A stretch of DNA of 13,131 bases from a virus (Duplodnaviria; Heunggongvirae; Uroviricota; Caudoviricetes). The stretch's first letter is position 1; the number at the start of each line of letters is the position of its first letter. The stretch is taken from the IMG/VR virus record IMGVR_UViG_2778261446_000002, positions 1 through 13,131 of that record; one strand, written 5' to 3'. Of this stretch, positions 1 through 4,884 are shown in pieces. Both the position numbers and the translations under genes were made by a program. The notes below the pieces were generated by a model, which saw nothing but the letters and a program-made list of their open reading frames with translations, did not search any database and was not told the DNA's origin.

Positions 1-65
1 CACGGGAATATCTGCGGCAGCAGGCCAGTAATGGGTTAAGTGATAACAGGTGTCTGGAAATATAG
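1..65 (+). CDS. IS2 transposase OrfB/InsD, C-terminal fragment (5' partial)
   Basis: Frame starting at base 3 reads REYLRQQASNGLSDNRCLEI then TAG at 63-65, resembling the IS2 InsD C-terminus from memory. The reading frame is open to the window edge. Confidence 0.6.
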   Translation, partial: REYLRQQASNGLSDNRCLEI

Positions 66-76
66 GGGCAAATCCA
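1..76 (+). mobile_element. IS2-family insertion sequence, right terminus (partial; element continues upstream of the window)
   Basis: Bases 1-76 end in ...GGTTAAGTGATAACAGGTGTCTGGAAATATAGGGGCAAATCCA, matching the IS2 right inverted repeat as I recall it, with a few substitutions. Host dsdC sequence resumes at base 77. Confidence 0.7.
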
Positions 77-580
77 CTGCAACGTGCCGGAATCGATTTG
101 GCGATCTACTTTGATGATGCGCCGTCAGCGCAACTCACTCATCACTTTCTGATGGATGAAGAAATCCTGCCAGTATGTAGCCCGGAATACGCTCAAAGAC
201 ATGCTTTAACCAACACGGTAATTAACCTGTGTCACTGTACGTTGCTCCATGACAGACAGGCATGGAGCAACGACTCCGGTACGGATGAATGGCATAGTTG
301 GGCGCAACATTATGCGGTTAATTTGCCGACATCTTCTGGAATTGGCTTTGATCGTTCTGATTTAGCTGTTATTGCCGCGATGAATCATATTGGGGTGGCG
401 ATGGGAAGAAAACGCCTGGTACAAAAAAGGCTTGCCAGTGGTGAGCTCGTCGCGCCGTTTGGCGATATGACGGTGAAATGCCATCAGCATTATTACATCA
501 CCACATTACCGGGCAGGCAGTGGCCAAAAATTGAAGCGTTTATTACCTGGCTAAGAGAACAGGTAAAAACCACTTCATAA
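77..580 (+). pseudogene. dsdC: dsdC (LysR-type D-serine regulator), 3' fragment truncated by the IS2 insertion; effector-binding domain only
   Basis: Translation LQRAGIDLAIYFDDAPSAQ...ITWLREQVKTTS* looks like the C-terminal half of a LysR-type regulator and matches my recollection of DsdC. The six-frame ORF start at ATG 50 lies inside the IS terminus, so it is not the native start. The N-terminal HTH half is absent from the window. Confidence 0.8.
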
Positions 581-675
581 TGAATAAAACCACGAGTTCC
601 TGGTGTGCCTTATTCGGCCTGCTAGTTCGAATTTAATTTACGGTTTTTATGTGGTTTTAGGGATAAACACAAGGA

Positions 676-690
676 TGGTGTCCCCTGCAG
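676..690 (-). other. attR core: 15 bp identical to the 3' end of tRNA-Arg argW (CTGCAGGGGACACCA on the minus strand)
   Basis: Plus-strand TGGTGTCCCCTGCAG is the reverse complement of the argW 3' terminus ...CTGCAGGGGACACCA. The flanking sequence does not continue the tRNA, so this is the partial duplicate at the prophage/host junction. Confidence 0.6.
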
Positions 691-763
691 ACATCTACTT
701 GAGGCGGCATGGGATTGATTGGAATGGTGTTTTTTAGATGTGAAAAATATTTTACCCGCTATT

Positions 764-964
764 TTACCCATTAGCGCGGCTTAAGAGCTTATTTTTGAAT
801 TCACAATGGTCACGATATAACCATCTTGCTCGCCCGTGGATAACTTTGGCTTTTGGCAGGTCGCCGGACTTAATCCGGTCATAGATGAAGGTTTTACCAA
901 AGCCAGTATCAGCCATGATGAATTTCAAATCAACCAGTGAATCAGGCTGTAGTTCGTGTTGCAT
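764..964 (-). CDS. torI: TorI-type excisionase / recombination directionality factor (66 aa)
   Basis: 66-aa product MQHELQPDSLVDLKFIMADTGFGKTFIYDRIKSGDLPKAKVIHGRARWLYRDHCEFKNKLLSRANG matches TorI of KplE1 as I recall it. SD GGAGAT precedes the ATG, and the gene sits next to the att core. Confidence 0.85.
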   Translation of the reverse strand: MQHELQPDSLVDLKFIMADTGFGKTFIYDRIKSGDLPKAKVIHGRARWLYRDHCEFKNKLLSRANG

Positions 965-3053: not shown

Positions 3054-3340
3054 GATTTACTCTCCACGAACTGGTCAACGGCCATGCTAAGTGACACACC
3101 TAAAGTATCGATATGCTGCTGAATATCCTGTAGCGTCCGCGCTTGAGATAACAGAATTTCACGGTTGCATAACTCTTTAACCAGATGCTCAAACTTGCTG
3201 TAATAACCGATACGGCTTAGTGTTTCTTTCCCTGCATTCTCACCTTCTTTGATAATTCCTCTTTCGCTAAGAATCAGGTCGTGTTTGGTTCCGGTAATAA
3301 CGTATTTGCCGAGGTCGATGTTTAGCTTCATTGTTTTCAT
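3050..3340 (-). CDS. Hypothetical phage protein (96 aa)
   Basis: ATG at 3340 ([14 protein letters not shown]...) preceded by GAGG. An alternative ATG at 3358 overlaps the upstream stop. The longer ORF-track version has no RBS. Confidence 0.5.
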
Positions 3341-3350
3341 TGTTAATTCC

Positions 3351-3647
3351 TCAGTCATTACTGATAGCGCCATAGCGTGAGCGGTAATTACGCAGGCGCG
3401 GGTCGATATATTCAGGGAAGTGGGTATATGTGGCTTTGCGGAATGGTCGGATTGATGTCTGGTAAATTCGCTCTCGTTCTTCTTTCTCTGCAAGCCATAT
3501 ACAGTGGCGAAATTCCTTTTCTTCTTTCGTTTCCTGCGGTAGCGACATTATCCGGTCGTAGTTTTTCCTGAATTTATCCAGCACCTCCGATACGGAATTG
3601 CCGGAACAGCGGCGCGCGTCGTCCGCACCATACAGAGGCGCTGGCAT
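3351..3647 (-). CDS. Hypothetical basic phage protein (98 aa)
   Basis: ATG at 3647 with SD AGGAG 7 nt upstream; begins 14 nt after the SSB stop. Confidence 0.6.
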   Translation of the reverse strand: MPAPLYGADDARRCSGNSVSEVLDKFRKNYDRIMSLPQETKEEKEFRHCIWLAEKEERERIYQTSIRPFRKATYTHFPEYIDPRLRNYRSRYGAISND

Positions 3648-3660
3648 GATTTTCTCCTGA

Positions 3661-4176
3661 TTAAATTGCGTGAATAGCGTGACGAGGGAAGGGGAGGGTT
3701 ACTGGCGCAAAAGGTATATCGTCGTCAAACTCCATAGGTGGTTCGCTGTGATTTACCTGCTTCTGAGGCTGCTGTTTTTGTTGCTGACCGTTATTTCGCT
3801 GAGGTGAAGACTGTTCATTGCTTCCTTGCTTGCCACCAAGCATTTGCATGGTTCCACCAACGCCCACGATAACTTCGGTAGTGAACCGATCCTGTCCGCT
3901 TTGATCCTGCCATTTTCTTGTCCGCAATTTTCCTTCAAGATAAACCTCAGAGCCTTTTCGCAGATATTCGCTGGCAATTTCTGCCAGTTTCCCGCTCATT
4001 ACCACACGGTGCCACTCCGTCTGCTCCTTTTGCTCTCCAGTTTGCTTATCACGCCATTGTTCTGACGTAGCAACTATAAGGTTTGCAAATGCCGTTCCTG
4101 ATGGTGAATATCTGATTTCTGGATCATGCCCAAGGCGACCAATAATGATCACCTTATTTACGCCTCTACTTCCCAT
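3661..4176 (-). CDS. ssb: Single-stranded DNA-binding protein (SSB) with a 15-residue extension beyond the conserved DDDIPF tail
   Basis: N-terminal OB-fold region closely parallels E. coli SSB (SRGVNKVI..., [40 protein letters not shown]), followed by a Gln/Gly-rich linker and the acidic motif MEFDDDIPF, then [15 protein letters not shown] before the stop. Confidence 0.9.
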
Positions 4177-4884
4177 TTATGCCGCCTGTTTTAGTTCGTT
4201 AACTCTGATGTTCATTACCTGAACGCATTTAGCCTGCGCATCCTCATTGCCAGCCATTAATTGCCAGTCATGCTGATAACGTTCTATGAGTTTTTTCTTG
4301 TCAGTTTCTGTTGATGCATAATCGCTGAAGTCTTTCAGGATTTGTTCGCAGTCAACCGATGGAGATTTCTGGTTGGTATTTTCTGGTGATGGTTTGTTAT
4401 CTGATGCTGGGATTGCCCAGCCCGGCAGCGATGGAGGGAGCCAGTAAAATCCTGTTCCATCCTTCAGTTTTGCCCTGTGCCACCCCTGCTTTTTATCGGG
4501 AGATGTTTGTGCGAAACCTTCCTCAAGGTTATACAGATACCGACCGATTCCCCACTGAACGGCAGCGCGCTTCATTGCACCGGAACGACCACCTTTGACG
4601 GCTTCTACCTGCGTGTTTTCAGCAGCATCCCATTTGGTTACCCATTCGGAATCAATCTTTATTGATATGCCGCATTCAACGCCGCCGTTGTTGGGAATAT
4701 CGCGGTATTCATTGCGCCATCCTGCTTTGCCACAAACATCGTCAAGGCGTTTCATGATTGCCCGGTTCGTAACATAAGCCAGCACCATAGCCCACACCTT
4801 GCCATCGCGTGTTTTACCGCTTTGCTGTATTCGCCATTCGATATCTTCAGGGCAGAATGGCTCATCGAATTTGTTCAAATCCAT
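4177..4884 (-). CDS. Single-strand annealing recombinase, Rad52/Sak-like (235 aa)
   Basis: Sits immediately upstream of ssb in the position of lambda bet/exo. The motif GGRSGAMKRAAVQWGIGRYLYNL resembles the Rad52-family annealing core. Family assignment is by pattern, not by search. Confidence 0.6.
   Translation of the reverse strand: MDLNKFDEPFCPEDIEWRIQQSGKTRDGKVWAMVLAYVTNRAIMKRLDDVCGKAGWRNEYRDIPNNGGVECGISIKIDSEWVTKWDAAENTQVEAVKGGRSGAMKRAAVQWGIGRYLYNLEEGFAQTSPDKKQGWHRAKLKDGTGFYWLPPSLPGWAIPASDNKPSPENTNQKSPSVDCEQILKDFSDYASTETDKKKLIERYQHDWQLMAGNEDAQAKCVQVMNIRVNELKQAA

What the first reader, a model, noticed from the sequence alone, without database searches (positions are those of the whole stretch)
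3661..3708. Prophage SSB whose conserved C-terminal DDDIPF tip is buried under a 15-residue extension
In E. coli SSB and related phage and plasmid SSBs the protein ends exactly at ...DDDIPF, and the free C-terminal Phe is the docking site for partner proteins. Here the frame continues [21 protein letters not shown] before TAA at 3661-3663. This could be a naturally masked SSB unable to recruit host partners, a lost stop codon, or a sequencing error.
Basis: partly seen in the sequence, partly recalled or inferred. Interest (0 to 1): 0.6.

Follow-up and report, generated by a model that had tools for sequence, protein, structure and literature searches.

The report
Phage SSB with a conserved C-terminal cap
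The 15 extra residues after the DDDIPF tip of this prophage single-stranded-DNA-binding protein are neither a lost stop codon nor a read error: they are a conserved 14-15-residue cap carried by many phage SSBs and a few plasmid SSBs of Gammaproteobacteria, and homing-endonuclease genes repeatedly insert exactly where the cap begins.

Summary
The ssb ORF (3661-4176, minus strand, 171 aa) ends ...[23 protein letters not shown].

The lesion and read-error readings are refuted. The same protein occurs in phage ECP1. About 300 of 5426 complete E. coli genomes carry the contiguous tip plus extension. Cap-bearing SSBs occur in Klebsiella, Salmonella, Citrobacter, Proteus, Pantoea, Vibrio and Pseudoalteromonas prophages, in IncN conjugative plasmids and in probable phage-plasmids.

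In 205 viral loci the cap is always 14 or 15 residues, with consensus AP[IV][GT]L-x-[YFH]-x...[ILMV]-COOH. It is as conserved as the OB fold (84% against 48% for the linker) and is predicted disordered.

Sf6 and Huey SSBs stop exactly at IPF because an HNH gene sits between the Phe and Ala codons and reads into the cap codons. ES18 and one viral contig carry unrelated genes after the Phe codon; in the contig the cap survives as a remnant, in ES18 it is gone.

Function is inferred, not shown. The cap removes the free Phe carboxylate that host partners anchor, so it probably blocks canonical host docking while offering a second motif for an unidentified partner, probably a host protein. I found no description of the cap in the papers searched.

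The parts
3661..4176 (-). ssb gene, 171 codons plus TAA. It is the bacterial-type SSB of the prophage recombination module.
   Evidence: ORF and translation. Pfam PF00436, E=1.4e-37. TIGR00621 at 179 bits against a cutoff of 54. RefSeq annotates the identical locus as ssb.
3832..4176 (-). OB-fold ssDNA-binding and tetramerisation core (residues 1-115).
   Evidence: Pfam match covers residues 6-105. The AF2 model has pLDDT 81-92 over residues 11-110 and a beta-barrel strand pattern. The best solved matches are enterobacterial SSBs, 7f2n and E. coli 1eqq.
3745..3831 (-). Gln/Pro-rich intrinsically disordered linker (residues 116-144).
   Evidence: AF2 pLDDT below 50 from residue 118. Mean pairwise identity is only 0.48 among 116 extended homologues.
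3709..3744 (-). Acidic SSB-Ct tip [12 protein letters not shown] (residues 145-156). Here it is internal, not C-terminal.
   Evidence: Mean pairwise identity 0.92. F150, D151, D153, P155 and F156 are invariant in alignment A3.
3664..3708 (-). 15-residue cap [15 protein letters not shown] (residues 157-171). This is the feature reported.
   Evidence: Conserved at 0.84 mean identity. Length is fixed at 14 or 15 residues in 205 viral loci. Predicted disordered. The motif is found essentially only at SSB C-termini.
3661..3663 (-). TAA stop of ssb. In Sf6-type phages the same stop terminates the inserted HNH gene.
   Evidence: DNA alignments.
3708..3709 (.). Phe|Ala codon boundary, the recurrent insertion point for selfish nuclease genes in related phages. 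It is unoccupied in this window.
   Evidence: An insert-free DDSDIPF+cap allele (L356) compared with Sf6 fixes the boundary to within one codon. At least 20 of 24 HNH-tail loci have an SSB that stops at IPF directly upstream. Unrelated inserts lie after the Phe codon in L293 and ES18.
3351..3647 (-). abc2 (anti-RecBCD), the next gene downstream. Its AGGAG ribosome-binding site lies at 3654-3658, just after the ssb stop.
   Evidence: Pfam PF11043, E=4e-61. Sequence. Annotation.
4177..4884 (-). Rad52/Rad22-family single-strand annealing protein. Its stop codon abuts the ssb start (TAAATG).
   Evidence: Pfam PF04098, E=5.6e-25..

Best explanation
The extension is a genuine, selected part of the protein: a short disordered C-terminal cap that defines a class of mobile-element SSBs. 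This part is shown.

How it works is inferred. The cap turns the SSB-Ct tip (DDDIPF) into an internal motif and removes the free alpha-carboxylate of the last Phe, which host SSB-interacting proteins anchor with a basic residue. ssDNA coated by this SSB should therefore recruit host partners such as ExoI, RecO, RecQ, PriA and chi poorly. The phage's recombination intermediates would be left to its own annealing protein, alongside Abc2, which disables RecBCD.

The cap's own motif is P-[IV]-[GT]-L-x-[FYH] followed by a hydrophobic C-terminus. Its fixed length and conservation suggest it is also a docking peptide for a second partner. That partner is probably host-encoded, because the cap occurs next to several unrelated phage annealing proteins and also on conjugative plasmids.

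The Phe|Ala boundary is in addition a tolerated insertion site for homing-endonuclease genes. Insertion there leaves an SSB with a canonical free tip.
For: **Family trait**
- Phage ECP1 encodes an identical protein. CP-1639, HZ41, epsilon34, g341c, HK75, mEp235 and mEpX2 carry the extension, and Hafnia phage Pocitis76 has a diverged version, APIGLMHPTHAIFSI.
- Nearly all of the 120 best 90%-identity clusters, from Klebsiella, Citrobacter, Enterobacter, Salmonella and E. coli, end [AS]P[VIL]TLPFPRH.....
- About 300 of 5426 complete E. coli genomes carry the contiguous tip plus extension.
- The taxonomic range runs from Proteus, Providencia and Pantoea to Pseudoalteromonas, Colwellia, Vibrio and Oceanisphaera.
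- IncN plasmids and probable phage-plasmids also carry it.

**Selection**
- Cap length is always 14 or 15 residues in 205 loci, with position-specific preferences.
- Mean identity is 0.84 for the cap, against 0.48 for the linker and 0.87 for the OB fold.
- For cap codons outside the search pattern, pN/pS is 0.27 and 0.59.
- There is no RNA structure (z=+1.0) and no promoter or terminator signal in the cap DNA.

**Short linear motif**
- AF2 gives pLDDT below 50 for residues 118-171 and shows no docking onto the OB fold.

**Masking**
- RecO Arg132 anchors the SSB-Ct carboxyl end (PMC3152348).
- SSB with GFP appended to its C-terminus fails to bind ExoI and behaved as a dominant negative in a plasmid complementation assay (PMC7293020).

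**Partner not a single phage protein**
- Upstream neighbours are Rad52-like (89 loci), Sak4-like AAA_24 (23), DUF2303 (10), YqaJ (6) and RdgC (5).
- The cap's C-terminal half differs by host order..PRHAIYVI in Enterobacterales and ..PALLMCM in marine gammaproteobacteria.

**The cap belongs to ssb, not to the HNH gene**
- HNH relatives elsewhere end near KPIY with short variable tails.
- Two HNH lineages only 47% identical to each other carry an identical or near-identical [11 protein letters not shown][HY]AI.
Against: - No binding or genetic experiment exists for this SSB type. A 2025 survey states that the Sf6 and ES18 Rec-module SSBs of this type have not been studied experimentally (PMC12315714).
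- The DDDIPF tip is still 92% conserved under the cap. That is unexpected if the tip were simply switched off, so it may still be read internally, for instance by annealing proteins.
- Viable phages such as Sf6, ES18 and Huey make an uncapped SSB. The cap is therefore dispensable for phage growth.
- The GFP precedent is a bulky fusion, not a 15-residue peptide.
- The host-order pattern in the cap could reflect phage phylogeny rather than co-evolution with a host partner.
- No partner has been identified.
Confidence: 0.5

Rival explanations
1. The cap is a degradation or processing signal. A hydrophobic C-terminus preceded by basic residues (..[12 protein letters not shown]) would be recognised by a host AAA+ protease such as ClpXP or Lon. 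This would either keep the mobile-element SSB short-lived or trim it to expose the canonical tip at the right time.
For: The cap is disordered and terminal. The last residue is almost always I, L, M or V, and the preceding residues are often basic (R, H or K). From my own knowledge, not tested here, this recalls ClpX C-terminal recognition motifs (ssrA ..LAA, MuA ..RRKKAI). Continued strong conservation of DDDIPF under the cap would make sense if the tip is later exposed.
Against: There is no experimental or computational test here. The N-terminal half of the cap, AP[IV][GT]L.[YF]P, is its most conserved part, and a terminal degron does not explain that. The marine-type tails end in ..CM or ..CI without basic residues.
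Confidence: 0.15
2. The cap is a sliding-clamp-binding peptide. P-[IV]-[GT]-L-[PQM]-[FY] would occupy the hydrophobic cleft of the beta clamp, as the hexapeptides of Hda (QLSLPL) and Pol IV (QLVLGL) do. This would tether the mobile element's SSB-coated ssDNA to host replication forks.
For: Hydrophobic residues sit at positions 2, 4 and 6, with Leu invariant at position 4 and Pro often at position 5. This matches the QLxLx[LF] class of clamp-binding motifs, which I recall from memory and did not test. A host partner common to phages and plasmids fits the distribution.
Against: Position 1 is invariably Pro rather than the near-universal Gln. The eight or nine conserved residues after the hexapeptide are unexplained. 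Variants with His or Glu at position 6 exist, such as APIGLMHP and APIGLQEG. No binding test was possible.
Confidence: 0.1
3. The cap is a neutral passenger: an old read-through or a scar from a nuclease-gene insertion, tolerated because the tail is disordered and kept mainly by hitch-hiking and as part of homing sites.
For: Phages without a capped SSB are viable. The locus is a hotspot of cassette insertions, deletions and fusion proteins. In a crude neighbour-joining tree of the OB domain, cap-bearing and canonical SSBs are interleaved, with 14 state changes in 170 taxa.
Against: Length is fixed at 14-15 residues in 205 loci, and residue preferences are position-specific across Enterobacterales, Vibrionales and Alteromonadales. 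The cap is far more conserved than the adjacent linker, 0.84 against 0.48. The amino-acid pattern is conserved where the DNA has diverged, as in Pocitis76. The cap persists on IncN plasmids, where the annotated stretch around ssb shows no nuclease gene.
Confidence: 0.1
4. The extension is a lesion or artefact of this one sequence, either a mutated stop codon or a read error.
For: None beyond the expectation that SSBs end at DDDIPF.
Against: Identical sequence occurs in independent complete genomes and in a sequenced phage. Hundreds of homologues carry the cap.
Confidence: 0.01

Closest known systems
E. coli SSB and other bacterial-type SSBs (PF00436, TIGR00621; solved structures 1eqq, 4mz9, 7f2n)
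   Same: OB-fold core about 70% identical to enterobacterial SSBs. Disordered Gln/Pro-rich linker. Acidic ...PPM(D/E)FDDDIPF tip.
   Different: The tip is not the C-terminus. Fifteen conserved residues follow it, so the alpha-carboxylate of the last Phe is absent. The family model ends at residue 156.
SSB-1 of the HK75-type and ES18-type lambdoid recombination modules (Genome Res 2025, PMC12315714)
   Same: This window has the HK75-type module: annealing protein, SSB-1 and Abc2 with no nuclease. HK75's own SSB carries the identical cap.
   Different: I found no mention of the cap in that survey. It treats the ES18 HNH gene as a likely bona fide module member. The junction analysis here suggests that the Sf6-type and ES18-type nuclease genes are insertions at the ssb 3' end.
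HK620 SSB and Sak4 (Hutinet 2018, PMC5928155), and RecT recognition of the last 7 SSB residues (Filsinger 2020 preprint)
   Same: These are precedents that an SSB C-terminal peptide decides which annealing protein can work on SSB-coated ssDNA.
   Different: Those tails end at a free ..PPF or ..IPF. HK620 SSB is only a distant SSB homologue. No extra motif beyond the Phe has been described.
Free-standing homing-endonuclease genes of phages (HNH type, for example relatives of T7 gene 7.7)
   Same: Nuclease-free and nuclease-bearing alleles differ by a precise cassette in a conserved gene. Several unrelated nuclease genes use the same spot.
   Different: The Sf6-type cassette borrows the host gene's last 14 codons and its stop codon as its own 3' end. 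It also converts the host protein to a different, canonical C-terminus. Homing itself was not tested.
SSB with GFP fused to its C-terminus (Dubiel 2020, PMC7293020)
   Same: This is an SSB whose tip is followed by extra polypeptide. It fails to bind ExoI and behaved as a dominant negative.
   Different: It is an artificial fusion to a 27-kDa folded domain. Here the addition is a natural, conserved, disordered peptide of 14-15 residues.

Membership tests
Bacterial-type SSB (PF00436 / TIGR00621) | N-terminal OB-fold ssDNA-binding domain | tested here: met
   PF00436 E=1.4e-37 over residues 6-105. TIGR00621 at 179 bits against a cutoff of 54. Confident AF2 beta-barrel. PDB matches 7f2n and 1eqq at E of about 1e-63.
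Bacterial-type SSB (PF00436 / TIGR00621) | Intrinsically disordered linker followed by an acidic ..DDDIPF motif | tested here: met
   pLDDT below 50 from residue 118. [12 protein letters not shown] at residues 145-156.
Bacterial-type SSB (PF00436 / TIGR00621) | The ..IPF motif is the extreme C-terminus, so the Phe alpha-carboxylate is free for partner docking | tested here: not met
   Fifteen residues follow Phe156. The TIGR00621 profile ends at residue 156.
Bacterial-type SSB (PF00436 / TIGR00621) | Homotetramer that binds ssDNA | not testable with these tools
   Only a monomer could be modelled. No biochemistry is available.
HK75-type lambdoid Rec module (annealing protein + SSB-1 + Abc2) | Contiguous genes for an annealing protein, a bacterial-type SSB and Abc2 in the early left operon, with no nuclease gene | tested here: met
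   Rad52-family gene at 4177-4884, ssb at 3661-4176 and Abc2 at 3351-3647, all on the minus strand and tightly packed. The classification comes from PMC12315714.
Homing-endonuclease target site (unoccupied allele) | Alleles with and without the nuclease gene share flanks and differ by a precise cassette | tested here: met
   L356 compared with Sf6 places the cassette between the Phe and Ala codons. At least 20 of 24 HNH-tail loci show an SSB stopping at IPF directly upstream.
Homing-endonuclease target site (unoccupied allele) | The inserted gene encodes a nuclease of a homing-endonuclease family | tested here: met
   Sf6 gp26 matches phrog_2340 'endonuclease', E=2.6e-47, and has an HH..N..CH..WH motif by eye, though no Pfam hit. 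ES18 gp47 matches Pfam HNH_3. The L293 insert matches phrog_13389, of unknown function.
Homing-endonuclease target site (unoccupied allele) | The nuclease cleaves the unoccupied allele and the gene is copied in by repair | not testable with these tools
   Needs purified enzyme or co-infection crosses.
Beta-clamp-binding motif (QL[SD]LF / QLxLx[LF]) | Gln at position 1 | tested here: not met
   Position 1 is Pro in all 63 distinct cap sequences tabulated.
Beta-clamp-binding motif (QL[SD]LF / QLxLx[LF]) | Hydrophobic residues at positions 2, 4 and 6 (or 5) | tested here: inconclusive
   I or V at position 2 and invariant Leu at position 4. Position 6 is Y, F or H in most, but E or C in some.
Beta-clamp-binding motif (QL[SD]LF / QLxLx[LF]) | Binds DnaN | not testable with these tools
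   No complex prediction or binding assay is available.

The most novel reading that the evidence does not exclude
'Capped' SSBs are a distinct functional class of mobile-element SSB. The 14-15-residue cap insulates phage or plasmid ssDNA from the host's SSB-Ct interactome, which includes nucleases, RecFOR loading and restart proteins. At the same time it recruits a different, conserved host factor through its own motif. Homing endonucleases exploit the cap boundary because insertion there switches the protein back to a viable canonical SSB. Natural capped and uncapped allele pairs, such as HK75 against Huey or Sf6, would then be a ready-made genetic system for asking what the free SSB C-terminus is for during infection.
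Probability: 0.3. Interest if true: 0.8.

Novelty: new variant of a known kind. Interest (0 to 1): 0.62.

Why it matters
In current accounts of bacterial SSB function, the protein acts as a hub through a free ..DDDIPF-COOH tip. That tip is also a drug target and a determinant of which recombineering proteins can be moved between species.

A large natural class of phage and plasmid SSBs keeps the tip but buries it under a conserved peptide. This runs against that picture and can be tested directly with peptides and with existing phages.

If the cap blocks host partners, it is a new host-evasion device sitting next to the anti-RecBCD gene. If it recruits another factor, it adds a second hub motif to SSB biology.

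There are practical consequences too. Annotation pipelines and SSB-tail-based tools that assume the last 7-9 residues are the tip would misread these proteins. The 'HNH nuclease' of ES18- and Sf6-type recombination modules may be a selfish insertion rather than a recombination enzyme.

Tried and rejected
- **DNA- or RNA-level function of the cap codons.** The RNA fold of 3630-3730 has z=+1.0. There is no promoter in 3300-4300, and its one terminator-like match is on the opposite strand, outside the cap and within chance expectation. The window has no Rfam family and no tRNA. Rejected.
- **Cap folding back onto the OB fold.** The AF2 monomer leaves residues 118-171 at pLDDT below 50. This gives no support, but a monomer model is weak evidence.
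- **One dedicated phage partner.** Neighbour clustering shows at least five unrelated upstream gene families. Rejected.
- **The cap derives from the HNH gene.** HNH relatives elsewhere lack it, and divergent HNH lineages share an identical or near-identical copy of it. Rejected.
- **Pairwise pN/pS over whole caps.** The loci were selected with patterns that fix several cap codons, and pS is near saturation, so the result is biased. I kept only the codons outside the patterns and rely mainly on the region-identity comparison.
- **A 60-nt megablast junction count.** It found only 3 genomes, because this allele has private synonymous changes. It was replaced by an 11-mer blastn search.
- **Literal searches of papers for cap peptides.** Six strings gave 0 papers. 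Concept searches found nothing on the cap.
- **A rough neighbour-joining tree of the OB domain.** It was too crude to decide between a single origin and several.

Full report
**1. The observation**

Window 3661-4176 on the minus strand encodes a 171-residue protein ending ...[30 protein letters not shown], followed by TAA at 3661-3663.

The protein is a bacterial-type SSB. It matches Pfam PF00436 with E=1.4e-37, and its closest solved structures are enterobacterial SSBs. The NCBIfam ssb profile aligns end to end and stops at residue 156, the Phe, so the last 15 residues lie outside the family model.

**2. Context**

An identical stretch lies in E. coli S163-2. RefSeq annotates the neighbourhood there as the early-left operon of a lambdoid or P22-like prophage: torI, ea genes, DUF5405, abc2, ssb, a Rad52-family annealing protein, kil, ral, N and the repressor, followed by cro-like, cII and replication genes.

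The three recombination genes are tightly packed. The stop of the annealing-protein gene abuts the ssb start (TAAATG). The abc2 ribosome-binding site follows the ssb stop directly. This is the 'HK75-type' recombination module of a 2025 survey, which states that the Sf6 and ES18 SSBs of this type (its 'SSB-1') have not been studied experimentally; I found no mention there of any C-terminal extension (PMC12315714).

**3. Not a lesion and not an error**

- Phage ECP1 encodes the identical protein. CP-1639 and HZ41 carry the extension.
- Phages epsilon34, g341c, HK75, mEp235 and mEpX2 have SSBs only about 70% identical overall, yet carry the same 15 residues.
- Hafnia phage Pocitis76 (about 61-64% identical) carries a diverged version, APIGLMHPTHAIFSI, encoded by diverged DNA.
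- Of the 120 best 90%-identity protein clusters, nearly all are SSBs of 164-175 residues from Klebsiella, Citrobacter, Enterobacter, Salmonella and E. coli ending DDDIPF-[AS]P[VIL]TLPFPRH[ATV][IVM][HY][AV][IL].
- About 300 of 5426 complete E. coli genomes hold the 75-nt tip plus extension as one contiguous match annotated ssb.

**4. How wide the trait is**

- A scan of viral contigs for the codons of PVTLPFPRH gave 97 extended SSBs.
- A scan for DIPF[AS]P[VI]GL gave 120 more loci with related caps, such as APIGLPYPRHAIYVI, APIGLMYPRHLINVI, APIGLQYPALLMCM and APIGLQEGRLFLHMI.
- In all 205 loci where the SSB ORF could be delimited, the cap is 14 or 15 residues long. Pro is invariant at position 2 and Leu at position 5. 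Position 7 is mostly aromatic and position 8 mostly Pro. The last residue is almost always I, L, M or V.
- Scans for the cap codons alone, without requiring the preceding DIPF, hit SSB C-termini almost exclusively.
- In one-genome-per-species bacterial contigs, the APIGL type occurs in Providencia, Proteus, Moellerella, Pantoea, Tatumella and Trabulsiella, and in Pseudoalteromonas, Colwellia, Glaciecola, Rheinheimera, Oceanisphaera and Vibrio.
- In that sample the Enterobacterales caps are 15 residues ending ..P[RS]H.I[YH].[IL]. The marine ones are 14 residues, mostly ending ..LL..[MI].
- Seventy-one of 72,556 plasmid records carry the cap, 58 of them conjugative. Examples are IncN pKPC-SMH (...[23 protein letters not shown]) and 85-kb non-mobilisable Salmonella plasmids that also carry a lysozyme gene (...DIPFAPIGLPYPRHTVYCL).
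- More than 5000 plasmid records have an SSB, so the cap is rare among plasmid SSBs and common among phage ones.

**5. Selection acts on the protein**

Among 116 extended SSB cluster representatives, mean pairwise identity is 0.87 for the OB fold, 0.48 for the linker, 0.92 for the acidic tip and 0.84 for the cap.

For cap codons not fixed by my search patterns, pN/pS is 0.27 and 0.59. These values are rough because synonymous sites are near saturation.

The cap-coding RNA has no unusual structure (z=+1.0), and no promoter or terminator signal lies in the cap DNA. AlphaFold2, run with a 30-sequence alignment, models the OB fold confidently and leaves residues 118-171 below pLDDT 50. The cap therefore behaves like a short linear motif at the end of a disordered tail.

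**6. Homing-endonuclease genes at the cap boundary**

In Sf6 the SSB stops immediately after ..DDSDIPF. Nine bases later gene 26 starts. It matches PHROG 'endonuclease' with E=2.6e-47 and has an HNH-like motif.

Among 24 viral loci with such an HNH tail, at least 20 show an SSB ending exactly at [DE]IPF directly upstream. One more has a frameshift there, and three are cut off by the locus end or interrupted within the HNH frame. At least three junction types occur.

An insert-free allele with the Sf6-type DDSDIPF tip plus the cap (L356) places the cassette between the Phe and Ala codons.

Relatives of the HNH protein elsewhere end near ..KPIY with short variable tails. Two HNH lineages only 47% identical to each other carry an identical or near-identical [11 protein letters not shown][HY]AI. 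So the cap belongs to ssb, and the HNH reading frames run into it.

Other inserts use the same position:
- In viral contig L293, an unrelated gene (phrog_13389) sits after ..DDDMIPF*, and FAPIGLPYPRHTIYVI* is left behind as an untranslated remnant.
- Huey has the second HNH lineage with the cap tail.

About 98 complete E. coli genomes carry the Sf6-type junction. Not every canonical-ended phage SSB has such a neighbour: S9-5 does not.

Actual homing was not tested. The 2025 survey regards the ES18 HNH gene as a probable recombination-module member. The junction evidence favours selfish insertion instead.

**7. How the cap probably works**

*Shown:* the cap exists, is conserved, is disordered and removes the free C-terminal Phe.

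*From published work:*
- RecO anchors the SSB-Ct carboxyl end with Arg132 (PMC3152348).
- An SSB with GFP appended to its C-terminus fails to bind ExoI and behaved as a dominant negative in a plasmid complementation assay (PMC7293020).
- Annealing proteins read the last residues of SSB.

*Inferred:* ssDNA coated by the capped SSB recruits host SSB partners poorly. This would complement Abc2 in taking recombination intermediates away from host pathways.

The cap's fixed length and motif argue that it is more than a plug and binds something itself. That partner is unlikely to be a single phage protein. The gene upstream of capped SSBs is Rad52-like in 89 loci, Sak4-like in 23, DUF2303 in 10, YqaJ in 6 and RdgC-like in 5, and IncN plasmids carry the cap as well. 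A host protein is the simplest candidate, and the host-order-specific C-terminal half of the cap is compatible with that.

Two points weigh against simple masking. DDDIPF remains 92% conserved under the cap. Phages with uncapped SSB are viable.

**8. Candidate partners**

The hexapeptide P-[IV]-[GT]-L-x-[FY] resembles the QLxLx[LF] class of clamp-binding motifs, which I recall from memory, but it lacks the Gln.

The basic-then-hydrophobic C-terminus resembles ClpX recognition tails, also recalled from memory. Neither candidate could be tested here, and both are listed as rivals with low confidence.

**9. Novelty and verdict**

Literal searches for six cap peptides found no paper. Concept searches found nothing on an extension beyond the SSB tip. 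The Sf6 record only notes that gene 26 shares 14 contiguous residues with an 'E. coli SSB'. These searches cover only the open-access library.

I rate this a new variant of a known kind: a bona fide SSB with an undescribed conserved cap, plus a recurrent nuclease-gene insertion site. The existence and selection of the cap are near certain. The masking-plus-second-motif mechanism is an inference that I hold at about even odds.

Noticed in passing
window 1-964: The left end of the window is the prophage/chromosome junction. It holds the tail of an IS3-family transposase, a LysR-family pseudogene split by that IS (ORF 50-580), and torI (764-964, minus strand), the excisionase-like TorI gene. dsdX lies just outside the window.
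   Followed up: partly
L356 2037-2504; L005 684-1208; viral-contig cluster 9: A second nuclease-gene insertion site lies at the 5' end of ssb. HNH_3-family genes sit between the annealing-protein gene and ssb and overlap the ssb start, in a metagenomic prophage, in Hafnia phage Pocitis76 and in 7 viral contigs. ssb is therefore flanked by insertion sites on both sides.
   Followed up: partly
L003 1716-2264 (epsilon34 gp34); 33 viral contigs; several E. coli genomes: An Rv2179c-like (DnaQ-type) 3'-5' exonuclease cassette is often inserted between the ssb stop and abc2. It lies after the cap, which stays intact.
   Followed up: partly
proteins P0131, P0134, P0144, P0173, P0180, P0183: Chimeric ORFs occur in public genomes. 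Some join an SSB N-terminus to the HNH C-terminus with the cap tail. Others join the HNH N-terminus to the exonuclease C-terminus. They point to frequent deletions across these cassettes.
   Followed up: no
L362 1904-2437 (IncN plasmid pKPC-SMH) and 57 other conjugative plasmids: IncN-type conjugative plasmids encode a capped SSB (...[23 protein letters not shown]) next to repA, a TrfB-related gene, a SprT-like gene and an antirestriction gene. Most plasmid SSBs are uncapped.
   Followed up: partly
L185 upstream ORF (384 aa; cluster 10): An RdgC-like protein fused to an FtsK-gamma domain lies upstream of some capped SSBs. It ends ...GERTVIPF, an SSB-tip-like C-terminus.
   Followed up: no
L328 about 240-900: One viral contig has a frameshift in the Phe codon region of a capped SSB (...DFDDDIPSRPSACSTLLY*), with the cap APIGLQYPALLMCM readable in another frame. 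It is either a read error or a natural loss of the cap.
   Followed up: no
window 4177-4884: The annealing protein matches Pfam Rad52_Rad22 over its first 136 residues. In epsilon34 the equivalent protein is called Erf-like only because its C-terminal 56 residues match P22 Erf, an instance of domain swapping in this gene.
   Followed up: no
L360 1366-1569 (Klebsiella phage phiKp_30): The SSB ends ..DDSDIPF*, followed by about 200 unannotated bases before the exonuclease gene. This may be the remnant of a deleted HNH cassette.
   Followed up: no
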